Below are positions 9,682 to 52,954 of a DNA stretch of 53,394 nt, in pieces. Numbering within the stretch: position 1 is the stretch's first letter; each line of letters begins with the position of its first letter. The stretch covers positions 1 to 53,394 of IMG/VR virus record IMGVR_UViG_3300027963_003320. One strand, 5' to 3'. The stretch comes from a virus. Taxonomy: Duplodnaviria > Caudoviricetes. The notes below the pieces were generated by a model. That model saw nothing but the letters and a program-made list of their open reading frames with translations, was not told the origin of the DNA and ran no database searches. A program made the translations under genes and the position numbers.

Positions 9682-10657
9682 TAGTTTGGCCGACTGGATT
9701 ATTGAAAATATACCAAATGTAGAAGTAGTTGGTATCGATGATTTATCGGGAGGATATAGAGAAAATGTAAATCCAAAAGTAATATTTTGGCAACAAAATT
9801 TAATAGAACATCCAATAGAGAATGCATTCGATGTCCATAGATTTGATTATGTATTTCATTTTGCAGCATATGCAGCAGAAGGATTATCACCATTTATTAG
9901 ACAATATAATTACCAAAATAATTTAGTAGCAACTTCCAGAATTGTAAATAATTGTATAAAATATAATGTTAAAAGATTGATATTTACATCATCACTCGCA
10001 GTATATGGATATGGTGAAGGCGGGTTGTTTAATGAAACACAAATACCTAAACCAATCGACCCATATGGAGTAGCAAAGTATGCATGTGAAATGGATATAC
10101 AAATTGCAGGAGAACAACATGGATTAGATTGGTGTATTATAAGACCACATAATGTATATGGTATTAAACAAAACATATGGGACAAATATCGTAATGTGTT
10201 AGGTATATGGATGCATCAGTATTTGAATGGAGAACCAATGACTATATTTGGTGATGGTGAACAAACTAGAGCATTTAGTTATATAGATGATATAGTTGAA
10301 CCACTATGGAACGCAGCAATTAGACCAGAGGCATCTAAAGAGATTATCAATTTAGGTGGAGTCGAAGAATGGAGTGTAAATAAAGCAAATTCATTATTAA
10401 AAAGTATTATAGGTAGTGGCGAAGTTGTTTATAAAGAGGGAAGACATGAAGTAAAAAATTCAATACCAACATTTCAAAAATCAATAGATATTTTGGGATT
10501 TGAACATAAAAATAATTTAAAATTAGGCCTTACAAAAATGTGGGAATGGGCCAAAAAACAGCCTAAGCGAGAAATCTTTAGCTGGCCTTCCTACGAAATT
10601 GATAATGGAATTTATTCATTTTGGAAAACAAAAAATAATGCAAAAACTACCGATTAG
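9641..10657 (+). CDS. NAD-dependent sugar epimerase/dehydratase (extended SDR)
   Basis: ITGVAGLLG, HFAA, TSS, YGVAK, RPHNVYG and GDGEQTR. Confidence 0.93.
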   Translation: MKILITGVAGLLGSSLADWIIENIPNVEVVGIDDLSGGYRENVNPKVIFWQQNLIEHPIENAFDVHRFDYVFHFAAYAAEGLSPFIRQYNYQNNLVATSRIVNNCIKYNVKRLIFTSSLAVYGYGEGGLFNETQIPKPIDPYGVAKYACEMDIQIAGEQHGLDWCIIRPHNVYGIKQNIWDKYRNVLGIWMHQYLNGEPMTIFGDGEQTRAFSYIDDIVEPLWNAAIRPEASKEIINLGGVEEWSVNKANSLLKSIIGSGEVVYKEGRHEVKNSIPTFQKSIDILGFEHKNNLKLGLTKMWEWAKKQPKREIFSWPSYEIDNGIYSFWKTKNNAKTTD

Positions 10658-11381
10658 TATAGGAATACTATCTTGGCATAGTGGACAAGTATTAGTAGAT
10701 ACACTAACTACTTATTACGAAAATGGTTTATTCGATATGGTAAATGATGTGACTATCCTATTTCAGGAAGTAACACCACAAGATATGGAAATTGCAAGAC
10801 ACTTTGGTTTAGATTTCATAGGGTTACAAAAGAATATAGGAATAGGACAGGCATTCATTCGTTTAACTGAAAATGCACAAACCGATTATGTTTTAGTATT
10901 AGAACATGATTGGAATTTAATTGAAAATAGTGAAACTACATATGAAAGATTACAAGATGGTACTTACTTATTAAATGAGTGTCCTATAAACGCCGTTAGA
11001 TATAGACATAGAGAGCAACCTGGTAATCCACATTTTTCATTTAGAAATAAAGGTAAAGAACTTACTTATTATGATGATGAGATTGGATGTACATCACCAC
11101 ATCTTTTAGATTCGTTACATTGGTTAGACCCATCCATTGAATTTCCAGATAAGATACAAAAATTAGGACAACATTTTATAACAACATCTCGTTGGGGTAA
11201 TTGGACTAATAACCCAACAATGTATAAGAAAGATTTTTATTTAGAAACTGTTAGACAATTTGCAGGTGAAGGAATTGCATTGGAAGGAAATATTAGTAAA
11301 TGGTGGGCACAACAACAATTTGGAGTTGCACATGGTGAAGGATTATTTAAACATAATGACTGGCAAAAATACGGAAAATAA
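10638..11381 (+). CDS. Putative glycosyltransferase (GT-A-like)
   Basis: ISIGILSW, NIGIG and VLVLEHD. ATG at 10638 is the likelier start than TTG 10599. Confidence 0.6.
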   Translation: MQKLPISIGILSWHSGQVLVDTLTTYYENGLFDMVNDVTILFQEVTPQDMEIARHFGLDFIGLQKNIGIGQAFIRLTENAQTDYVLVLEHDWNLIENSETTYERLQDGTYLLNECPINAVRYRHREQPGNPHFSFRNKGKELTYYDDEIGCTSPHLLDSLHWLDPSIEFPDKIQKLGQHFITTSRWGNWTNNPTMYKKDFYLETVRQFAGEGIALEGNISKWWAQQQFGVAHGEGLFKHNDWQKYGK

Positions 11382-13182: not shown

Positions 13183-13847
13183 AAATAGGAATTAATTTAG
13201 TAGGAGTTTCATATAACGATGGAAAGATTGGTAGATATAGAAATTATGAAGATGCCATTGATGGTTTTATGACTAATGTTGTAAATCCATTAAAAGAAGA
13301 AGGACATGAAATATCTTTTTATTTATTTACATATGACTCTCCAAAAAAAGAAGATATTATAAAAATATACAATCCCAAAAAATCAACATTTTTAGACCCG
13401 AATTATAATAAATTAGGCGGTGGTGATAAATTGGAAAATGGAATGAAAACCATATCAGTAACTTATATTAATAGTTTGTATGAATTGGAAAATGAAGATT
13501 TGGATTTAGTAATATCAACAAGATTTGATATATCATTTAATAAAAATCCATTTAAAGAATATGAATATGATTTGAATAAATGTAATTATTTATGGAGAGA
13601 ACCTGAATTTACTCATGTCCCCATTGTAAGTGATACCTTTATAGTATTCCCACATTCAATGACATCAAATTTAATAGATGCAATTATAGAAATGGAAACC
13701 AATCCACCACATGGAGTTGGAGTTGCAATGCATAATATTTATATACCAATGTGTAATCAGGTAGGTAAAGATAATGTAAAAATAGTTTGTGATGAATTCA
13801 AAAAAAGTCACATAAATGACATATACACATTAACAAGACATGAATAA
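13179..13847 (+). CDS. Hypothetical glycosyltransferase-like protein
   Basis: DLVISTRFD motif similar to YVIKLRTD of the 46528 ORF; lies in the glycan island. Confidence 0.5.
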   Translation: MKIGINLVGVSYNDGKIGRYRNYEDAIDGFMTNVVNPLKEEGHEISFYLFTYDSPKKEDIIKIYNPKKSTFLDPNYNKLGGGDKLENGMKTISVTYINSLYELENEDLDLVISTRFDISFNKNPFKEYEYDLNKCNYLWREPEFTHVPIVSDTFIVFPHSMTSNLIDAIIEMETNPPHGVGVAMHNIYIPMCNQVGKDNVKIVCDEFKKSHINDIYTLTRHE

Positions 13848-14631
13848 GTTATTAAACGCATATCTTTGGGGTTATAAAAATTGGGAAGCAGCTGATAACT
13901 CTTTCCGAAAATTTAGAGAGTTCTATCCTGACGGAGATATTAATATTAGTGTCGATGATAATGGTGATTTTGAAAATTATACAAAAGTAGCTGAAAAATA
14001 TAATGCAGAATGTTATAAAAATCCATTTCAAATAGGATATCCTGGTAGTTTTCAAAATCATAAAAGTGATAGAGATTGTTGGCCAAAAGATAACGCATTA
14101 CTTTGGTGTGATAACATATATTGGGCTTGTAAAAAATCCGATTCTAAATTTATGGTTATATTAGAAGAAGATAGTTTTATTATAAAACCAATCAGCATTA
14201 TTAAAAATAACGAATTTGGAATAGCAGTTTTAGAATATAATGCAAATATAATAACTGAAAATATATTGTATATAATTCAACAAATAGGTGGTAATACCGA
14301 TGTTCCATTAAATATATTTGGTAACAAAGGATATGGTGCTAGTGGTGGATTTATCATAGATTGTCAAAAATGGATTATTAGCTGGGAAAAATTCAGACAC
14401 ATATTAGAATTAAATTATGATATGATTGCATCGTATGATAAATTAATTGGTTGGCCAGATTCATTAGGACAATTTGTTATTATGGCCGGTGGATTTAATG
14501 TTGTTCAGAATAAACAAATGGTACAAGCTTGGTATCACGAACGACCAGATTTATATCCTAACTATACCAATTGGAAAAACTACGAAATAGTTGATTATTT
14601 AAAAGATATAGAAGAAATTAGAAAGTTATAA
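13840..14631 (+). CDS. Hypothetical glycosyltransferase-like protein
   Basis: VILEED and GASGG; glycan island context. Confidence 0.5.
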   Translation: MNKLLNAYLWGYKNWEAADNSFRKFREFYPDGDINISVDDNGDFENYTKVAEKYNAECYKNPFQIGYPGSFQNHKSDRDCWPKDNALLWCDNIYWACKKSDSKFMVILEEDSFIIKPISIIKNNEFGIAVLEYNANIITENILYIIQQIGGNTDVPLNIFGNKGYGASGGFIIDCQKWIISWEKFRHILELNYDMIASYDKLIGWPDSLGQFVIMAGGFNVVQNKQMVQAWYHERPDLYPNYTNWKNYEIVDYLKDIEEIRKL

Positions 14632-15386
14632 TGAAAGATTTAGTTATATCAGCAATAGCAAACTATTTGCCAGAAAAGATTAAAATATACATTGAATCAC
14701 TAAACGATTGTGGTTACGATGGTGATAAGGTGATGATATGCTATAACATACCAAAAGAAACAATTGATTATTTAACAGATAAAGCTTGGGAATGTTATGG
14801 TGCTGAATTACAAGGTCATCCTCATATGAGAAGATTAATTGATATGTGGTGGTTCTTACAGAATGATGTGAGAGAATGGAATCATATAATTACAACAGAT
14901 GTAAGAGATATTGTATGGCAAACAAATCCATCCGATTGGTTAAGATTGACTAATAAGGATAAAATAATTTGTGCATCTGAATGTGTTACATATGAGAACG
15001 AACCTTGGGGTCACAAAAATATCCACGAAGGATATGGGCCGATGTTTTGGGATTGGATTAAATCAAACACAATTGCTAATGTAGGAGTAATTGCTGGAAA
15101 ACATAAATTAGTAAAAGATTTATTAATGTTGAATTGGTTAGTATCTCAATCAGGAGATGTTAGACATTTTACAGACCAAAGTTCTTTTAATTTTGTAATA
15201 CACAACGAACTTATAAAAGATAAAGTTGATATTAATTCAGATTTTGCATTACAAGTTGGAACTACAAAGATTGATTTTAAAATAGAAAATGATTTAGTTA
15301 TGAACGGTGATGTTCCATTTGTATTAGTACATCAATACGATAGAAATTCAGAATTAAATACTTTAATAACAAACAAATACAAATAA
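14631..15386 (+). CDS. Putative GT-A glycosyltransferase
   Basis: TDVRD (DxxD), NVGVIAG, DQ..FN and VHQYDR. Confidence 0.7.
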   Translation: MKDLVISAIANYLPEKIKIYIESLNDCGYDGDKVMICYNIPKETIDYLTDKAWECYGAELQGHPHMRRLIDMWWFLQNDVREWNHIITTDVRDIVWQTNPSDWLRLTNKDKIICASECVTYENEPWGHKNIHEGYGPMFWDWIKSNTIANVGVIAGKHKLVKDLLMLNWLVSQSGDVRHFTDQSSFNFVIHNELIKDKVDINSDFALQVGTTKIDFKIENDLVMNGDVPFVLVHQYDRNSELNTLITNKYK

Positions 15387-29913: not shown

Positions 29914-31059
29914 ATGATAAAGCTTAAATCATTAATAAATAAATCTTTTTTATTAAAGGAAGAGGATATCGTCAAAAACAAAAAGACGGGTAATGTATAT
30001 ACTGTACAACAAATGGACCCCGATAAACACGATAAAGCAACCCCTGCTGAGATTGAAAAAACTAAAGCTAAGTCAGGTGGTGTCATTCCGAAAGTAGGAC
30101 AAGAACCATCTACACCAAAGCCAGGTGTTAACCCACAGGCAAAACCTCAACAACCAACGGCACAACCCGCAGCAGGAGAAAAACCGAAAGCAGGAGAAAA
30201 ACCAAAAGCACAACCTACACAACCTCAACCAGGTGAAGCACCTCCTCCAGGAAAATTAAGTGGTAAAGATTTTCAAAGTTCTGCAGAAAAAAATGCAGAA
30301 AAAGAAAAACCACAAAGACCTGGTGCAGATGATATGAAGTTGAAAAACTTAATGCCAGGCATTGATACATCTAAAAAAACATTAGACCAAGTTAGTCCGA
30401 TGGAAAAAATGGAAGTAGCAACTAAAATTGATGCTTTGGTTGCAATGACCGATAAGGCAAAAGCAAATGGTGAAAAACCAGAATTCTTTAATCTTTGTGA
30501 TGTATCAATTCCAGGGTCAAATATATATTGTGAAGATAATTTAGGTATAGATAGAAACGATATGCCTCAATTCAAAGGTGATGCAAGACCTGGTTCACCA
30601 GCATCTAAATTACCAAAAAATAAAAATGGTGAAGTTGATGGTGAAGCATTCTTTAAAGAACTATTAGTAAAAGATGGTATTAAAGTAGATGGCCCACATG
30701 ATGTTCCACCGGATAGATTAAAAGCAACTCAAAAGAATATGGTTGGTGATAAAGTTGCAGGTATGTATAAAGGACTTGAAGAAAATCCCAATGACCCAGG
30801 TTTAACAGCACCTATATATGTTTCTAATGATGGTTATGTATTAGATGGCCACCATAGATGGGCAGCAATTGTTGCATATAATGCAAAAAATCCTGATAAG
30901 CCAATTCCTATGAAGGTAAACATAATAGATGAACCTATAAAACCATTGGTAAACAGAGCAAATAAGTATGCAGACCACATTGGTATTGAAAAGAAAGCCG
31001 CAGTAGCAGGACAGAGGTCGGGTACACCTCAAAACCAATCTCCAGAAAAAAAAAAGTAA
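29914..31059 (+). CDS. ParB/Sulfiredoxin-like domain protein with Pro/Gln/Lys linker, possibly virion-associated
   Basis: L.ATQ...PIYVS.DGYVLDGHHRWAA motif; start MIKLKSLI at 29914. Confidence 0.72.
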   Translation: MIKLKSLINKSFLLKEEDIVKNKKTGNVYTVQQMDPDKHDKATPAEIEKTKAKSGGVIPKVGQEPSTPKPGVNPQAKPQQPTAQPAAGEKPKAGEKPKAQPTQPQPGEAPPPGKLSGKDFQSSAEKNAEKEKPQRPGADDMKLKNLMPGIDTSKKTLDQVSPMEKMEVATKIDALVAMTDKAKANGEKPEFFNLCDVSIPGSNIYCEDNLGIDRNDMPQFKGDARPGSPASKLPKNKNGEVDGEAFFKELLVKDGIKVDGPHDVPPDRLKATQKNMVGDKVAGMYKGLEENPNDPGLTAPIYVSNDGYVLDGHHRWAAIVAYNAKNPDKPIPMKVNIIDEPIKPLVNRANKYADHIGIEKKAAVAGQRSGTPQNQSPEKKK

Positions 31060-31100
31060 ATACTAAACCATCCAAAAGAGTTTCTTCTAATGGTGAGGAA

Positions 31101-31784
31101 ATGGGAACAATTCAAACTAAAAAGGGTTCAACTATTTTTGGTGTAGAACATGATGATATTGAAGGTGCCAAAAAAGTGGTAGATGATGTTAAAAAAATGT
31201 ATTCACCAAATGATAAAATTGTATTTATGGGTGAAGGTGGTGACAAAGATAATAATTATGTTCCAGGTAGTGAACAAGAATATATCCACAATGAATTAAA
31301 AAAATCATTTCCAAATATGGAAAATGATAGTTGGGATGGGGCAGATTTAGATGTCCACAATGACCAATCTTTACTATATAAATATCAAAAAAAGAAAACC
31401 GGATTACCACATAATATTATTATGGCGGGCAATTGGGCAAGTATGGTTGGACAAGGTGAGGGGTTAGATAGTATGAATCCATCTAAGTATTTGGATGACG
31501 ATGGTAAGAATTTTTTACAACAATCAGCAAAAGAAGCAGGATTTCCACCTATTAGCAATTTTGACAAACCAAACAAAAAAGATAAAAAAATATTATATAG
31601 ATTATCATTCCCTGCAGATTATAACGATAAAAATACTGGTGTAAGTAAAGTATCTGATTCATTCAACGCAGCTAGAGATGAAAATTTAATTCGTAAAACA
31701 AAGGACTACGAAAATAAAGGATATAAAGTGGTATCAACTGCAGGAAATGGCCACATTGATTTAATAAAAAATAGAAAAAAATAA
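31101..31784 (+). CDS. Hypothetical protein with TraB/ChaN/EreA-like motifs; possibly a frameshift extension of the upstream gene
   Basis: FGVEH...GEGG...RDENL...AGNGH; the frame is open back to the A10 run at 31046-31055. Confidence 0.55.
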   Translation: MGTIQTKKGSTIFGVEHDDIEGAKKVVDDVKKMYSPNDKIVFMGEGGDKDNNYVPGSEQEYIHNELKKSFPNMENDSWDGADLDVHNDQSLLYKYQKKKTGLPHNIIMAGNWASMVGQGEGLDSMNPSKYLDDDGKNFLQQSAKEAGFPPISNFDKPNKKDKKILYRLSFPADYNDKNTGVSKVSDSFNAARDENLIRKTKDYENKGYKVVSTAGNGHIDLIKNRKK

Positions 31785-31790
31785 ATTGTT

Positions 31791-32531
31791 ATGAATAAGT
31801 TATGGATTTTTGGTGATAGTTTTTCACATGGGCATGGCTTTAATGATTCCGACCCATTTTATGAAGTCACTTTATCCGATGATATTGATAAACGATATTG
31901 GTGTGAAATTGTAGCAGATGAATTAAATTTAGAACTACATAATCATGCTAATGTGGGTGCATCTAATGATTATATATTAGACACCATCTTAAATAACGCA
32001 GACAAGATTGGAGAAAACGATTATATTGTAATCCAAGCTGCGTATTATAGTAGATTTGATGTTCCACATAAAAGTTCATTTAGTTTCTTACACACAATCG
32101 TTAGATATGGTGATAGTAGACATATTAAAGTAAACCTAATAGGTGACGACGATATGACCGACCACAAACACGAAACATTAGTAGACTTTGCAGTTTACTT
32201 TGCAGGATTACCAGCATACGAACATAGACAACTTAATAGATTTGAAAAATTAATAGGTTTATTAAAAACAAAAAATGTTGTATTTTGGTGTTTAAAATCT
32301 CCAGATTCTCCAAATATAGATGAAATTGAAATTATAAAAAAACCATACTTTATAAAATTTGATGAAAAGTATATAGGTGCGGAAGATTCTTATAAAAATT
32401 ATAAAGCAACTATGACTGACGAAAGTGGTGGTAAAATACAAGATGGGCATATCGGTGTTTTAGGACAACAAGTGATGGCAATGGAAACTCTTAAAAAATT
32501 CAACAAAACATACGATGACAAAAGAAAATAA
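31791..32531 (+). CDS. SGNH-like protein (paralog 5)
   Basis: LWIFGDSFS.G, GASN and DGHIG..G. Confidence 0.75.
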   Translation: MNKLWIFGDSFSHGHGFNDSDPFYEVTLSDDIDKRYWCEIVADELNLELHNHANVGASNDYILDTILNNADKIGENDYIVIQAAYYSRFDVPHKSSFSFLHTIVRYGDSRHIKVNLIGDDDMTDHKHETLVDFAVYFAGLPAYEHRQLNRFEKLIGLLKTKNVVFWCLKSPDSPNIDEIEIIKKPYFIKFDEKYIGAEDSYKNYKATMTDESGGKIQDGHIGVLGQQVMAMETLKKFNKTYDDKRK

Positions 32532-51054: not shown

Positions 51055-51091
51055 TACATAACTCATTGATTTCCAATAACTTACAAGTTTA

Positions 51092-51123
51092 TTTGGTAAT
51101 TCAGGATATTTATCGTATATTTG
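51092..51123 (+). promoter_or_regulatory. -33/-7 promoter (copy 6), for tmRNA
   Basis: TTTG-N20-TATATTTG, an exact match to the Bacteroidota TTTG / TAnnTTTG consensus. Confidence 0.85.
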
Positions 51124-51135
51124 ATATAACAAATT

Positions 51136-51501
51136 GGGGATGCTATGGAATTGATTGCAATGTAAATGGTAGTATCACACGTGGACAAAGCATGAATGTC
51201 CTTAAATACTTGCAAAACAACAAAAGACGAAAAGTCAACAATGACTTACAATGACCTTATGGCATTCGTAGGTATGGATTACGCTGTAGCAGCATAACCA
51301 ATCCCGTACACATCATGGGACTTTAAATAGAATGTGAAATGAGTTTACTGAAACCTAAAATCAGTTGGTGGCCAGTTGTATTACCATACAGCCCTTATTA
51401 TTTTGGAAAGTTTGTAAGATTAAACTTTATCCTAAACGTGTGAAATGCTGATATTATTAGTTCTTTGTAAGACAGGGGTTCGATTCCCCTCATCTCCACC
51501 A
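51136..51501 (+). ncRNA. ssrA: tmRNA
   Basis: Acceptor GGGGATG/CATCTCC with G3.U70, T arm AGGGG-TTCGATT-CCCCT, ACCA end; internal tag frame ending YAVAA* at 51297. Confidence 0.95.
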
Positions 51502-51511
51502 AAAAAACATA

Positions 51512-51542
51512 TTTGGTAATTTGAAAAAGTTATCGTATATTT
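51512..51542 (+). promoter_or_regulatory. -33/-7 promoter (copy 7), for tRNA-fMet
   Basis: TTTGGTAA at 51512 and TCGTATATTT at 51533. Confidence 0.8.
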
Positions 51543-51552
51543 AATTTAATAT

Positions 51553-51624
51553 CGCGGGATAGAGCAGAGGTAGCTCACGTGGCTCATAACCACAAGGTCG
51601 GAGGTTCGAATCCTTCTCCCGCAA
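51553..51624 (+). tRNA. tRNA-Met(CAT), initiator type
   Basis: Cloverleaf with C1:A72 mismatch, CTCATAA loop and GTTCGAATC T loop; CCA not encoded. Confidence 0.92.
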
Positions 51625-51628
51625 CAAA

Positions 51629-51697: not shown

Positions 51698-51714
51698 AAA
51701 AAGTTTTAAATAAA

Positions 51715-51745
51715 TTTGGTAGAATAAAAAATTATTCGTATATTT
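51715..51745 (+). promoter_or_regulatory. -33/-7 promoter (copy 8), for the large ncRNA
   Basis: TTTGGTA at 51715 and TCGTATATTT at 51736. Confidence 0.8.
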
Positions 51746-51749
51746 ATTA

Positions 51750-52655
51750 AAACCGAAAGGAAGTTCTTTAAAAGATTAAAATATTTACGAAGTGGGTTTC
51801 GACTCACATAGTAAACAACGGCCGCTTATGGTCGTCAAATAAACTACGAAAGTAGGATAAAGTGGGTGTATTTAAGTGATACATCTGCGGTTACTCTCCC
51901 CGTAAGGAGAGACTAACTTAAGTAAGCAAGTGGGATATTGTTTGAGCTTTGTACGAAAGGGTAACACTATATCGGAAGAGTTTGGATAATTGGGGTAGTA
52001 TAGATACTCCAATTGAGGTGGGAACACCAATAAGAATAACCCATAGAATATCTTGTAAGAAGTGTAGACTTAATCCCTCTACATCATTGCGGTATTCAGT
52101 TTGATAGTTATCTTAACATTAAGCCATCCGAAAGGACGCAAGATAAGATAGTGTACAAGTGGTGTTGTTACCATCCTTATATAGAGTTTGCCAAAACCTA
52201 TATTTGAAGATGACTTAAAAAACCGCAGTAGGGATATTGCATCGAGTAGTTTAGTATTCTCTTGACCAAAAGTTGAGGGAGCTAGTGGTAAACCGCTACT
52301 TGAATCATTCTATAAACTAAAACTCAATTTGAATAGTAATTCAAACTACAATTTAAAATTAAGCTTAAGTGTTTACCAGTTGCAGATGAAAGGTGTGTAC
52401 ATAGTTAAGAGATGTTCTTAGCCACGATACCTCCGCAAGAGGTCTGTGATTCTATCGAAAGGTTTCTAATTCCGCAAGAATTAATTAGGTCGCGAGGCTT
52501 GAAGAAAATAAGTAAGTAGAGAGTAATCGGCAACTTATAGACTGATAGTCTTAAATCATCCACATTGAATTGGTACTACTCAAAAGGTAGTGGAAACGGG
52601 AGGAACTAATAATCTTTCTAAAGCTGGTTCACCAAATAGAGTATTCTCATCTATT
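51750..52655 (+). ncRNA. Large structured ncRNA, GOLLD-like; ends approximate
   Basis: About 900 nt with no ORF of 60 aa or more, own promoter, many GNRA/UUCG-type hairpins, flanked by tRNAs. Confidence 0.7.
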
Positions 52656-52660
52656 TATAA

Positions 52661-52730
52661 GCGGTGTTAGTGTAACAGTAGCACATCGGACATTCCAGTT
52701 CGAAGGAGGGGGGCAGCACCTTTTACCGCT
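52661..52730 (+). tRNA. Non-canonical tRNA-Gly(TCC)-like RNA
   Basis: GCGGTG/TACCGC acceptor, U discriminator, intact D and anticodon stems; D loop lacks GG, T loop lacks TTC, anticodon loop is 8 nt. Confidence 0.6.
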
Positions 52731-52817
52731 CAACAGTAATTTAATGAGGCTAGTATTAACCGGAGCATGACTTGACGTGGCGTATTTTGAAATTGAATTA
52801 CTTTTTATAGAGAAAAA

Positions 52818-52886
52818 ATGAAGAACTTAACATTACATACAGCAGATTGTCTAACCATTAGAATTTGGGGTGGCAATAGTATGTAA
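52818..52886 (+). CDS. Putative attenuator leader peptide (22 aa)
   Basis: MKNLTLHTADCLTIRIWGGNSM* after an A-rich start; the stop overlaps the antiterminator strand. Confidence 0.65.
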   Translation: MKNLTLHTADCLTIRIWGGNSM

Positions 52887-52931
52887 AGTTAGGAAAGTTT
52901 ATTCAAATAATTTATGGAAACCCTGACTTTA
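52884..52931 (+). promoter_or_regulatory. Antiterminator helix
   Basis: TAAAGTTAGG (52884-93) pairs with CCTGACTTTA (52922-31): 10 bp with one G.U, sequestering the terminator 5' arm. Confidence 0.65.
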
Positions 52932-52954
52932 ATTAGTTGGGGTTTTTTGTTTTT
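52918..52954 (+). terminator. Intrinsic terminator directly before the tRNA array
   Basis: AAACCCTGACT-ttaatt-AGTTGGGGTTT then TTTGTTTTT. Confidence 0.85.

What the first reader, a model, noticed from the sequence alone, without database searches (positions are those of the whole stretch)
52661..52733. tRNA-Gly-like RNA that keeps GlyRS identity but lacks translation features
Seen: G1-C72, C2-G71, G3-C70, a U discriminator and TCC in the loop are retained, and the D stem (GTGT/GCAC) and anticodon stem (TCGGA/TTCGA) pair. However, the D loop is AACAGTA (no GG), the T loop is GGCAGCA (no TTC), the T stem is G.U-rich and the anticodon loop has 8 nt (CATTCCAG). Established: these acceptor pairs, U73 and C35/C36 are bacterial glycine identity elements, and staphylococcal non-proteinogenic tRNA-Gly species also lose GG and TPsiC and donate glycine outside the ribosome. 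Inference: a dedicated glycyl donor for a tRNA-dependent transferase, a decoy for anticodon nucleases, or a frameshift suppressor. It sits upstream of the attenuator, so it is regulated separately from the normal tRNAs.
Basis: partly seen in the sequence, partly recalled or inferred. Interest (0 to 1): 0.7.

Follow-up and report, generated by a model that had tools for sequence, protein, structure and literature searches.

The report
Phage glycine tRNA dedicated to Mom
This 70-base RNA gene is an odd glycine tRNA of a kind that phages keep beside, or together with, the Mom enzyme that uses glycine-charged tRNA to chemically disguise phage DNA, so it is most likely a private glycine donor for DNA modification rather than for making protein.

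Summary
Window 52661-52730 is a 70-nt cloverleaf with G1-C72, C2-G71, G3-C70, U73, an 8-nt loop CAUUCCAG, no GG and no T-Psi-C. ARAGORN does not call it, and Rfam tRNA gives 20.5 bits (cut-off 29).

It is not decay. Nine homologues in related large phages keep it, with compensatory changes in all 5 anticodon-stem pairs.

The decisive result is a link to Mom:
- Relatives with the same loop lie next to Mom-family genes (PF25680) in 9 of 12 loci tested.
- Of 80 viral loci chosen by Mom protein alone, 72 carry a glycine-type tRNA within -15 to +24 nt of Mom. The control gave 0 of 637 random places.
- 36 of the 62 distinct sequences have 8-nt loops, and 22 lack both GG and TTC.
- A model built only from those elements scores the window's element at 53 bits.
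- Six relatives with this element carry two tandem Mom genes. In five syntenic ones the pair lies 4-12 kb beyond the window's left edge.

Mom is published to use Gly-tRNAGly as its co-substrate. The best reading is therefore a dedicated, probably ribosome-excluded, glycyl donor for Mom, co-transcribed with GOLLD. Charging and use by Mom are untested.

The parts
52661..52730 (+). tRNA-Gly-like RNA, 70 nt up to and including discriminator U73. No CCA is encoded; CAA follows.
   Evidence: Sequence. Rfam tRNA 20.5 bits, full length. Model R1 53.0 bits. Covariation in 10 homologues.
52661..52667 (+). Acceptor 5' strand GCGGTGT. It pairs with 52723-52729 (TTACCGC): G1-C72, C2-G71, G3-C70, G4-C69, U5-A68, G6.U67, U7.U66.
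   Evidence: Pairs 1-5 are invariant in 10 of 10 homologues. Pairs 6 and 7 are unpaired in 7 and 6 of 10.
52670..52684 (+). D arm GTGT-AACAGTA-GCAC, with A at the G18 place and G19 kept.
   Evidence: The stem is invariant. A18 goes with an N-G-C T loop in 22 of 22 sequences.
52686..52703 (+). Anticodon arm: stem TCGGA/TTCGA and 8-nt loop CATTCCAG (52691-52698). UCC is at 52694-52696.
   Evidence: All 5 stem pairs change on both sides and 100% of cells are paired. The loop is invariant in 10 of 10. It is also the commonest loop (17 of 62) in Mom-adjacent elements.
52708..52722 (+). T arm: 4-bp stem GGGG/CCTT (two G.U, two G-C) and loop GGCAGCA.
   Evidence: T stem cells are 100% paired, with one G.U to U-A change and a paired deletion. 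The same GGCAGCA loop occurs in Mom-adjacent L333.
52242..52653 (+). GOLLD RNA, conserved 3' domain. The whole RNA probably runs from about 51750-51800 to 52653.
   Evidence: Rfam RF02032 277.7 bits, E 2.9e-78. RNA contig depth is in the thousands over about 51824-52663 in 4 lake metatranscriptome runs.
51713..51752 (+). Promoter-like 40-nt repeat (TTGGTA-17-TATATT), the third of three copies. It is the nearest candidate promoter upstream of GOLLD and the element.
   Evidence: The other copies at 51090 and 51510 precede the tmRNA and tRNA-Met.
52735..52806 (+). Conserved hairpin element closed by an 11-bp helix and followed by a U tract, directly after the tRNA-like RNA.
   Evidence: Conserved in 9 loci. 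Fold; the z-score of -0.68 is not exceptional.
52916..52947 (+). Intrinsic-terminator-like hairpin with T run, separating this unit from the ordinary tRNA array that starts at 52954.
   Evidence: tRNA array.

Best explanation
The element is a phage-encoded paralogue of tRNA-Gly(UCC). It belongs to a widespread family of glycine-type tRNAs that accompany Mom-family DNA aminoacyltransferases.

Proposed mechanism:
1. It is transcribed with GOLLD from the promoter-like site at 51713-51752 (inferred).
2. It is cut out by the usual tRNA enzymes: RNase P at 52660/52661, then 3' trimming and CCA addition (inferred).
3. It is glycylated by the host GlyRS. It keeps G1-C72, C2-G71, purine4-pyrimidine69, U73, C35 and C36 (the sequence is shown; charging is inferred).
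4. Its glycine is handed to the phage's Mom enzymes, which turn adenine in phage DNA into N6-carbamoylmethyl-adenine. The chemistry is published for Mu Mom; use of this tRNA is inferred from gene association.
5. The extra base in the anticodon loop and the weak first pairs of the T stem probably keep it away from the ribosome and EF-Tu, so the donor pool is not drained by translation. This is inferred by analogy with staphylococcal non-proteogenic tRNA-Gly.
For: (1) Adjacency. Mom-family ORFs (PF25680, E 1e-35 to 1e-54) lie next to homologues of the element in 9 of 12 loci tested (L137, L126, L134, L129, L130, L132, L176, L192, L243). These Mom proteins are as little as 24-29% identical to each other.

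(2) Reverse test on 80 viral loci chosen by Mom protein only.
- ARAGORN finds a tRNA within 500 nt in 29. All 29 are Gly(tcc) 16, Gly(acc) 3 or '???(tc)' 10, and no other identity occurs.
- My detector finds a glycine-type element within -15 to +24 nt of Mom in 72 of 80, against 0 of 637 random places. ARAGORN adds 5 of the 8 misses.
- 28 of the 72 are on the opposite strand, so they are genes, not mRNA structures.

(3) The window's odd traits are family traits. Of 62 distinct elements, 36 have 8-nt loops (CATTCCAG in 17), and 22 lack GG; all 22 of those also lack TTCRA.

(4) Invariant columns of the family are G1 C2 G3, C35 C36, C70 G71 C72 U73 plus one A in the T stem. The first nine positions match the published GlyRS determinants (PMC10464925, passages).

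(5) Model R1, built only from those 62 elements, scores the window's element at 53.0 bits. The window's tRNA-Met gets 25.1, and ordinary tRNA-Gly genes in relatives' arrays get 31-46. In the complete relatives the GOLLD-slot copy is the only hit of 50 bits or more.

(6) Six records with a glycine-type element in the GOLLD slot carry two tandem Mom genes (145-154 bits; G001, G002, G005, G010, G013, G014). This includes both records that are at least 95% complete. In five of the six the pair lies 4.4-11.8 kb beyond the point that aligns with window base 1.

(7) G006 has nothing tRNA-like in the slot, has 87 kb of upstream cover, and has no Mom.

(8) Relatives also carry a normal tRNA-Gly(UCC) with a CUUCCAA loop. 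The slot copy is therefore not needed for decoding.

(9) Mom uses Gly-tRNAGly and rejects Gly-tRNAAla (PMC13219725, passages).
Against: - No Mom gene lies in the 53-kb window. Its presence in this phage is a prediction from synteny.
- Mom was not found in 5 further fragments that carry the element (G003, G004, G011, G012, G015). All cover less than 51 kb upstream of the island, so they are uninformative rather than contrary.
- Nothing shows that the RNA is made as a separate species, charged, or used. RNA contig depth over 52664-52747 is low (414, 28, 7, 0), against 98-1491 in the bin before. That fits excision of a small RNA but equally fits low expression.
- Mu Mom works with all three E. 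coli isoacceptors, so a private tRNA is not required for the chemistry.
- The 80 Mom loci are the best 80 of 565 relatives of one query, so they represent one part of the Mom family.
- Acceptor pairs 6:67 and 7:66 are mostly mismatched, and the T stem here has only 4 bp. This could mean a weakened molecule.
- G009, a very close relative by GOLLD (95% identity), has a 40-nt minihelix in the slot instead (L110).
Confidence: 0.6

Rival explanations
1. Its main role is as a processing signal. A tRNA-shaped module placed after GOLLD lets RNase P create the GOLLD 3' end, as the tRNA-like mascRNA does for MALAT1. The released piece would have no function of its own.
For: - It starts 7 nt after the GOLLD model end.
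- Among 93 non-redundant GOLLD loci the 3' flank is an intrinsic terminator in 43, an ARAGORN tRNA within 25 nt in 18 and a strict tRNA-like in 6. The detector's background is 50 of 1634 random places.
- Sister lineages with the same flanks carry only a 40-nt acceptor/T-arm minihelix in the slot (L055, L103, L110, L045).
- No promoter-like site lies between GOLLD and the element.
- RNA depth falls at the boundary in 4 of 4 runs. This is only a weak hint, because the data are contigs.
Against: - RNase P needs only the acceptor/T helix. Yet the anticodon stem shows compensatory change at 5 of 5 pairs, the 8-nt loop is invariant and the D arm is invariant, while the base of the acceptor stem is the least conserved part.
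- The same RNA family occurs beside Mom genes with no GOLLD nearby.
- L009 has GOLLD with nothing tRNA-like after it.
- This role can coexist with the donor role. As the sole role it does not explain the family.
Confidence: 0.1
2. It is a working translational tRNA: a glycine tRNA with an 8-nt anticodon loop that reads GGN triplets, or a four-base codon as a +1 frameshift suppressor.
For: - Identity elements and the cloverleaf are conserved.
- The A18/N-G-C elbow also occurs in phage tRNAs that look fully functional.
- An 8-nt loop does not by itself exclude triplet decoding. The precedent is the yeast mitochondrial tRNA-Thr (PMC3113583, search listing only).
Against: - Relatives already encode a standard tRNA-Gly(UCC), and some also a GCC tRNA.
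- The family tracks Mom genes rather than tRNA arrays.
- The first T-stem pairs are G.U here, and G.A or a bulged A in the Mom-adjacent family. These are the positions published to set EF-Tu affinity (PMC7826273, passages).
- Scores fall below the tRNA thresholds.
- I did not search for frameshift sites.
Confidence: 0.1
3. It is a regulator or decoy, not a donor. An uncharged or charged tRNA mimic would bind Mom, GlyRS or a host tRNA-cleaving defence nuclease and so control timing or protect host tRNA-Gly.
For: - The anticodon loop is strictly conserved but altered.
- Phages are reported to carry tRNAs with changed anticodon loops that escape host nucleases (PMC10264068, title and abstract in a search listing).
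- Close linkage to Mom would also fit a regulatory partner.
Against: - What is invariant in the family is the set needed for charging with glycine, including U73 and the first three acceptor pairs. That points to aminoacylation.
- No nuclease or defence gene was examined, and there is no direct evidence.
- The eLife paper holds none of the terms insertion, tRNA-Gly, T-loop or D-loop.
Confidence: 0.1
4. It is a decaying tRNA-Gly pseudogene with no function.
For: - ARAGORN and Rfam do not call it.
- Acceptor pairs 6 and 7 are mismatched and the T stem is shortened to 4 bp.
- L110 in record G009 (GOLLD 95% identical) has lost the element.
Against: - Ten diverged copies keep the fold, with 15 cells changed on both sides, and 0 of 500 shuffles reach the covariation score.
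- The odd features are shared with dozens of independent Mom-adjacent genes.
Confidence: 0.04

Closest known systems
Non-proteogenic tRNA-Gly of Staphylococcus (NP1-NP3), glycine donors for FmhB/FemA/FemB in cell-wall synthesis
   Same: Both are extra tRNA-Gly(UCC) paralogues that keep the GlyRS identity and have unusual D and T regions. Weak T-stem pairs lower EF-Tu binding, so the glycyl-tRNA pool is split between translation and a transferase (PMC7826273, passages). The same logic is proposed here.
   Different: - The staphylococcal lineage is stated to be restricted to staphylococci.
- The partner there is a Fem transferase. No FemAB or Acetyltransf_6 gene is present in the window or in 5 relatives.
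- Here the element is phage-encoded, the partner is Mom, the target is DNA, and many members have an 8-nt anticodon loop.
Phage Mu Mom, a GNAT-fold DNA aminoacyltransferase that uses Gly-tRNAGly to form N6-carbamoylmethyl-deoxyadenosine
   Same: It supplies the biochemical reason for a glycine tRNA beside Mom. Mom needs charged tRNA-Gly with an intact terminal adenosine and rejects Gly-tRNAAla (PMC13219725, passages).
   Different: The paper describes Mom as scavenging host isoacceptors. The main text has none of these terms: encoded tRNA, phage tRNA, own tRNA, adjacent, dedicated, neighbo-, genomic context, gene cluster. 'tRNA gene' occurs once, in the methods. Supplements could not be read. 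A private tRNA partner would be an addition to that system.
tRNAs embedded in or next to GOLLD RNA
   Same: GOLLD is known to lie in tRNA islands, often downstream of tRNA-Met, and to hold tRNAs or pseudo-tRNAs in its linker (PMC12286853; PMC12990946; PMC6582537). Here tRNA-Met lies upstream and a tRNA-like RNA directly downstream.
   Different: The known embedded tRNAs sit in the internal J13/15 linker. This one is appended 7 nt after the 3' end, and its family is defined by Mom, not by GOLLD.
mascRNA at the 3' end of MALAT1 (a tRNA-like RNase P signal). This comparison is recalled, not drawn from any call.
   Same: A tRNA-shaped module directly after a long structured non-coding RNA would let RNase P make the long RNA's 3' end.
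   Different: mascRNA is eukaryotic and is not aminoacylated. Here the anticodon arm and the GlyRS identity are conserved, which a pure processing signal does not need.
tRNAs with 8-nt anticodon loops: frameshift suppressors such as sufD (recalled) and yeast mitochondrial tRNA-Thr (PMC3113583, search listing only)
   Same: There is one extra base in the anticodon loop.
   Different: Those act on the ribosome. Here the extra base lies 5' of UCC and the family co-occurs with a DNA-modifying enzyme. No decoding evidence exists.

Membership tests
Mom-associated glycine-type tRNA family (defined here from 62 elements beside Mom genes) | Significant match to covariance model R1, which was built only from Mom-adjacent elements | tested here: met
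   53.0 bits, E 6.7e-11, full length 1-71. This is higher than the window's tRNA-Met (25.1) and the ordinary tRNA-Gly genes of relatives (31-46).
Mom-associated glycine-type tRNA family (defined here from 62 elements beside Mom genes) | Invariant G1 C2 G3 / C70 G71 C72, U73, and CC in the anticodon loop | tested here: met
   All are present at 52661-52663, 52727-52730 and 52695-52696. The invariant columns of the family are listed.
Mom-associated glycine-type tRNA family (defined here from 62 elements beside Mom genes) | A Mom-family gene (PF25680) in the same genome | tested here: inconclusive
   None lies in the 53-kb window, which is 23% of the genome. A pair is present in 6 relatives that carry the element. 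In 5 of them it lies 4.4-11.8 kb beyond the window's left end.
Mom-associated glycine-type tRNA family (defined here from 62 elements beside Mom genes) | Invariant A in the 3' strand of the T stem (G51.A63 mismatch or bulge) | tested here: not met
   The window has CCTT with that position deleted. Relatives L135, L125 and L136 have CCATT. This is a lineage variant, not a core feature of the proposal.
Canonical tRNA (Rfam RF00005 / ARAGORN) | Score at or above the gathering threshold, or a call by ARAGORN | tested here: not met
   20.5 bits against a 29-bit cut-off. ARAGORN makes no call.
Canonical tRNA (Rfam RF00005 / ARAGORN) | 7-nt anticodon loop, G18 G19, and T54-Psi55-C56 | tested here: not met
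   The loop is 8 nt, the D loop is AACAGTA and the T loop is GGCAGCA.
Staphylococcal non-proteogenic tRNA-Gly | Partner Fem-type transferase (FemAB PF02388, or Acetyltransf_6 PF13480) | tested here: not met
   0 matches in the window and 0 of 5 relatives, including records 95% and 100% complete.
Staphylococcal non-proteogenic tRNA-Gly | Low affinity for EF-Tu and no ribosome binding | not testable with these tools
   Only the sequence hint of G.U pairs at the first T-stem positions.
GOLLD RNA (is the element part of it?) | Covered by the RF02032 model | tested here: not met
   The model ends at 52653. 43 of 93 GOLLD loci end in a terminator at this point.
Frameshift-suppressor tRNA | Extra base in the anticodon loop | tested here: met
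   CATTCCAG, 8 nt.
Frameshift-suppressor tRNA | Acts on the ribosome at four-base sites | not tested

The most novel reading that the evidence does not exclude
GOLLD and the Mom donor tRNA form one functional unit. Each GOLLD transcript carries one glycine-donor tRNA at its 3' end. Assembly of GOLLD into its published multimeric cage would then gather, store or time the release of the donor tRNAs, and so of DNA modification, during infection. This would give GOLLD its first link to a defined pathway. A less bold part of this reading is more likely, at about 0.5: Mom plus a private, ribosome-excluded tRNA-Gly is a widespread two-gene DNA-hypermodification module in phages.
Probability: 0.1. Interest if true: 0.9.

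Novelty: new variant of a known kind. Interest (0 to 1): 0.8.

Why it matters
Mom's co-substrate was identified only recently, and the published picture is that the enzyme scavenges host glycyl-tRNA. These results suggest that many phages instead bring their own glycine tRNA. Its shape should keep it charged but off the ribosome.

If true, this would be:
- a second natural case, after staphylococcal cell-wall synthesis, of a tRNA paralogue set aside for a non-ribosomal transferase;
- the first such case that is virus-encoded and serves DNA modification.

It also explains a class of 'tRNA-???' calls with odd anticodon loops in phage genomes, and it gives a sequence marker for finding Mom-type DNA modification. 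The idea is directly testable with purified GlyRS, EF-Tu and Mom. The position right after GOLLD gives a first concrete lead on what that abundant, function-less RNA travels with.

Tried and rejected
- Kissing contact between the loop AUUCCA and the GOLLD motif GUGGAAA. The GTGGAAA variant occurs equally in GOLLD loci with terminators and in those with the element. No support.
- Bacterial origin of the family. A scan of genome contigs for the D arm plus CATTCCAG gave 0 hits.
- Exact-match search for the element in viral contigs gave 0 hits.
- Fem, GNAT-Fem, MprF-type and class II synthetase genes (PF02388, PF13480, PF09924, PF00587). None in the window. PF02388 and PF13480 are also absent from 5 relatives.
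- My first two tRNA-like detectors for the GOLLD flank were wrong (bad regex) or too loose in AT-rich DNA. I replaced them.
- My first two detectors for Mom loci demanded a perfect T stem and found 1 and 7 of 80. The family has a mismatch or bulge there, so one search dropped that demand and used a random-place control.
- RNA evidence. Only assembled contigs were available, so starts, ends and strand cannot be read. One X1 contig (52497-52685) bridges the GOLLD/tRNA boundary. Adapter-like loose ends at 52626-52628 could not be interpreted. Parts without cover are not used as evidence.
- The metagenome-contig scan did not complete and I did not repeat it.
- Two papers (Morgado 2020; Weinberg 2009) are not held.
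- The hairpin at 52735-52806 has no exceptional folding energy.
- Phyletic test for Mom in records with a minihelix in the slot (G007, G008, G009). The contigs cover too little upstream sequence to say anything.
Full report
**The observation**

The window is a 53,394-base virus fragment, estimated at 23% of a genome. Its right end is an RNA island:

| Feature | Coordinates |
|---|---|
| tmRNA | 51136-51501 |
| tRNA-Met | 51553-51625 |
| GOLLD RNA (Rfam RF02032, 277.7 bits) | 52242-52653 |
| tRNA array (Ile, Trp, Arg, Cys, His) | from 52954 |

The finding lies between GOLLD and the array.
- G1-C72, C2-G71, G3-C70 and discriminator U (52730).
- D stem GTGT/GCAC with D loop AACAGTA.
- Anticodon stem TCGGA/TTCGA with the 8-nt loop CATTCCAG.
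- T loop GGCAGCA in a G.U-rich stem.

Three points need correcting:
- The RNA ends at 52730 and is followed by CAA, not CCA.
- The T stem has 4 pairs, and acceptor pair 7:66 is U.U.
- The element begins only 7 nt after the GOLLD model ends.

Standard tools do not call it a tRNA. ARAGORN gives nothing. Rfam tRNA gives nothing at E<=10 in a 2.3-kb search, and 20.5 bits against a 29-bit cut-off in a 101-nt search.

**It is conserved, not decayed**

These gave nine homologues, each directly after a GOLLD RNA of 280-317 bits, in the same order: tmRNA, tRNA-Met, GOLLD, element, tRNA array.

In the alignment of the ten, pair counts show the following:
- 93.7% of cells are standard pairs.
- All 5 anticodon-stem pairs change on both sides, with no unpaired cell.
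- The T stem is fully paired, including a G.U to U-A change and a deletion of both partners of one pair.
- 0 of 500 shuffles reach the covariation score.
- The D stem, acceptor pairs 1-5 and the loop CATTCCAG never vary.
- Acceptor pairs 6 and 7 are unpaired in 7 and 6 of 10.

One caveat applies. Eight of the nine homologues were found with patterns that include the D arm, and the loop as well. The D-arm-only scan found no GOLLD-attached copy with another loop.

Other relatives carry something different in the same slot:
- L036/L106 and L122 have a more ordinary tRNA-Gly(UCC), with GG and TTCAATT.
- L127 has such a gene directly after the element.
- L119, L125, L127 and L135 carry a separate standard tRNA-Gly(UCC) in their arrays, with loop CUUCCAA in L119, L125 and L135.

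**'No GG, no T-Psi-C' is a swap, not a loss**

The same D arm with A at the G18 place occurs in phage genes that ARAGORN calls tRNA-Trp, Gln (three), Met, Asp, His and Trp. These have normal 7-nt loops, and several have an encoded CCA (8 of 23 contexts).

Among 29 distinct cloverleaf-compatible sequences with this D arm:
- A18 goes with an N-G-C T loop in 22 of 22.
- G18 goes with TTC in 5 of 7. The other two (L126, L129) read TTCAAAT by eye; the script misplaced the register.

G19 and C56 are kept. The elbow contact therefore appears to be rebuilt rather than abandoned, and this trait alone says nothing about translation.

**The link to Mom**

Several homologues with a normal elbow but the same CATTCCAG loop are lone genes in small viral contigs (L126, L129, L130, L132, L134, L137). 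ARAGORN labels them 'tRNA-??? (tc)'.

Pfam scans of their neighbours gave Mom-family proteins (PF25680, E 1e-35 to 1e-54) next to the RNA gene in 9 of 12 loci tested. In the other three (L128, L133, L238) only one neighbouring ORF each was tested. The Mom proteins are as little as 24-29% identical to one another.

Mom of phage Mu has been shown to use Gly-tRNAGly, with an intact terminal adenosine, to convert adenine in double-stranded DNA to N6-carbamoylmethyl-adenine. It rejects glycine carried on tRNA-Ala (PMC13219725, passages read; preprint 10.1101/2023.03.24.534169).

**The reverse test**

The search for related loci with an alignment of seven Mom proteins returned 80 viral loci chosen by protein similarity only. 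They are the best 80 of 565 confirmed relatives.
- ARAGORN finds a tRNA within 500 nt of Mom in 29. All are Gly(tcc) 16, Gly(acc) 3 or '???(tc)' 10.
- My detector asks for GCG...CGC plus U73, a D stem, an anticodon stem, and NCC in a 7- or 8-nt loop. It finds such an element within -15 to +24 nt of the Mom match end in 72 of 80 loci, and at 0 of 637 random places in the same loci.
- Of the 8 misses, 5 have an ARAGORN tRNA-Gly and one has only 108 nt of flank.
- 44 elements are on Mom's strand and 28 on the opposite strand.
- Of 62 distinct sequences, 36 have 8-nt loops (CATTCCAG 17, TATTCCAA 9). 22 lack GG, and all 22 also lack TTCRA. One (L333) has the window's own GGCAGCA T loop.

The invariant columns of the 62 are G1 C2 G3, the two C's of the loop, C70 G71 C72 U73 and one A in the T stem. 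Apart from that A, and with G3-C70 added, these are the published determinants for bacterial GlyRS: G1-C72, C2-G71, C35, C36 and U73, with purine 4 - pyrimidine 69 preferred (PMC10464925, passages). The window has G4-C69.

**Membership of the window's element**

Model R1 was built from these 62 sequences, none of them from GOLLD phages. Its scores are:

| Target | Bits |
|---|---|
| Window's element | 53.0 (E 6.7e-11) |
| The nine GOLLD-slot homologues | 46-60 |
| Window's tRNA-Met | 25.1 |
| Ordinary tRNA-Gly genes of relatives | 31-46 |

In the two near-complete relatives the slot copy is the only hit of 50 bits or more.

**Mom in this phage lineage**

The window has no Mom match. Two tandem Mom genes (145-154 bits against a 27.1-bit cut-off, open frames of 254-270 aa) are present in G001 (95% complete), G002 (100%), G005, G010, G013 and G014. 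All six carry a glycine-type element in the GOLLD slot. None of 14 control genomes passes the cut-off.

Alignment of the window's first kilobases to these records places window base 1 as follows:

| Record | Position aligned to window base 1 | Mom pair lies beyond the left end by |
|---|---|---|
| G013 (GOLLD 95% identical) | 15,623 | 4.4-5.8 kb |
| G005 | 22,897 | 7.7-9.1 kb |
| G001 | 60,251 | 6.7-8.2 kb |
| G002 | 56,829 | 6.3-7.7 kb |
| G014 | about 45,200 | 10.4-11.8 kb |

The window's contig therefore stops short of the expected locus.

Five other fragments with the element but no Mom (G003, G004, G011, G012, G015) cover at most about 51 kb upstream of the island. The pair lies 50-64 kb upstream in the syntenic relatives.

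G006 has GOLLD with nothing tRNA-like after it, covers 87 kb upstream, and has no Mom. This is a single case.

**Relation to GOLLD**

The GOLLD 3' end is a general 'slot'. Among 93 non-redundant loci the flank is:
- a terminator in 43;
- an ARAGORN tRNA within 25 nt in 18;
- a strict tRNA-like in 6;
- other in 24;
- 2 were false motif hits.

The detector's background is 50 of 1634 random places. By eye, the 'other' class includes 40-nt acceptor/T-arm minihelices (L045, L055, L103, L110) whose flanks match the window's.

A 40-nt promoter-like repeat occurs three times, before the tmRNA, before tRNA-Met and before GOLLD. No such site lies between GOLLD and the element, and the first terminator-like site is at 52916-52947. 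Co-transcription with GOLLD and release by RNase P is therefore the simplest route. It is inferred, not shown.

In four lake metatranscriptome runs, which are contigs only, summed depth behaves as follows:
- It is in the thousands over about 51824-52579.
- It is 98-1491 in the bin 52580-52663.
- It is 414, 28, 7 and 0 in the bin 52664-52747.
- It is also near zero over tRNA-Met and the tRNA array.
- One contig bridges the boundary.

This fits a small RNA that is cut off and lost in such libraries, but it is only a weak hint.

Published work places tRNAs near GOLLD and inside its linker. Two searches of the held library (GOLLD with RNase P, and GOLLD with tRNA-like) found nothing on a 3' tRNA-like module.

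**Mechanism and how sure I am**

*Shown:*
- The sequence features.
- Conservation with covariation.
- Family membership.
- The statistical association of the family with Mom genes.
- Mom pairs in relatives.

*Established by others:*
- Mom's use of Gly-tRNAGly.
- The GlyRS determinants.
- EF-Tu affinity is set by the first three T-stem pairs, and weak EF-Tu binding partitions staphylococcal tRNA-Gly to Fem enzymes (PMC7826273, passages).

*Inferred:*
- This RNA is excised and charged.
- It is kept from EF-Tu and the ribosome by its 8-nt loop and G.U T stem.
- It is used by Mom.

I put 0.6 on the donor role. The processing-signal role may well be true in addition. As the only role it does not explain the conserved anticodon arm or the GOLLD-free family members.

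**Novelty**

Searches of the held library returned only the two Mom papers and a jumbo-phage survey as relevant. The searches were: Mom with bacteriophage Mu and glycyl-tRNA; momylation; and Mom homolog/Mom-like/Mom family with tRNAGly. The survey notes Mom genes in jumbo phages but no tRNA partner (PMC7824862, passages).

The main text of the 2026 paper has none of these terms: encoded tRNA, phage tRNA, own tRNA, adjacent, dedicated, neighbo-, genomic context, gene cluster. It describes host isoacceptors as scavenged.

I therefore rate the finding as a new variant of a known kind: a tRNA paralogue reserved for a non-ribosomal aminoacyl transferase, here virus-encoded and serving DNA modification.

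Noticed in passing
window 52242-52653 (3' domain); whole RNA about 51750-52653: A full GOLLD RNA (277.7 bits) in a phage RNA island with a tmRNA and tRNA-Met upstream. It is very abundant in contigs of four lake-water metatranscriptome runs, with depth in the thousands.
   Followed up: partly
GOLLD 3' flanks in L003-L121: The GOLLD 3' end is followed either by an intrinsic terminator (43 of 93) or, within 5-17 nt, by a tRNA, an odd tRNA-like or a 40-nt acceptor/T-arm minihelix. tRNA-Met is the commonest. This suggests two alternative ways of making the GOLLD 3' end.
   Followed up: partly
L138, L144, L162, L167, L178, L186, L205, L225, L234 and others: A class of phage tRNAs of many specificities (Gln, Trp, Met, Asp, His, Gly, and one with anticodon CTA in L201) has A at position 18 together with an N-G-C T loop in place of T-Psi-C (22 of 22). 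This looks like covariation of the G18:Psi55 elbow contact.
   Followed up: partly
window 51090-51129, 51510-51549, 51713-51752: Three copies of a 40-nt promoter-like repeat (TTGGTA-17-TATATT) precede the tmRNA, tRNA-Met and GOLLD.
   Followed up: no
window 52735-52806 and 52819-52887: A conserved hairpin of about 75 nt closed by an 11-bp helix with a U tract, followed by a small conserved ORF (MKNLTLHT...). Both are shared with L019, L119, L125, L135, L136, L055, L103 and L110. There is no Rfam match.
   Followed up: partly
alignment A3 (Mom-adjacent elements in L257-L336): The T stem of the Mom-adjacent glycine tRNAs has an invariant A that makes a G51.A63 mismatch or a bulge. This is one of the positions reported to set EF-Tu affinity.
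   Followed up: no
G001 66997-68440; G002 63135-64566; G005 13760-15203; G010 30441-31875; G013 9807-11241; G014 55536-56970: The large phages of this clade carry two tandem Mom paralogues (254-270 aa each) rather than one.
   Followed up: no
L001 2533-2630 and 2712-2801; L022, L038, L071, L094, L097, L117: Another GOLLD clade has unusual tRNA-likes after GOLLD, with inserted hairpins or 6- to 9-nt anticodon loops. They are followed by a conserved motif TTTTCGTAGTGGTTAAC.
   Followed up: no
L036 7938-8010: A second glycine-type gene directly after the first has a 6-nt loop AUUCCU closed by a C-G pair. It scores 51 bits with model R1.
   Followed up: no
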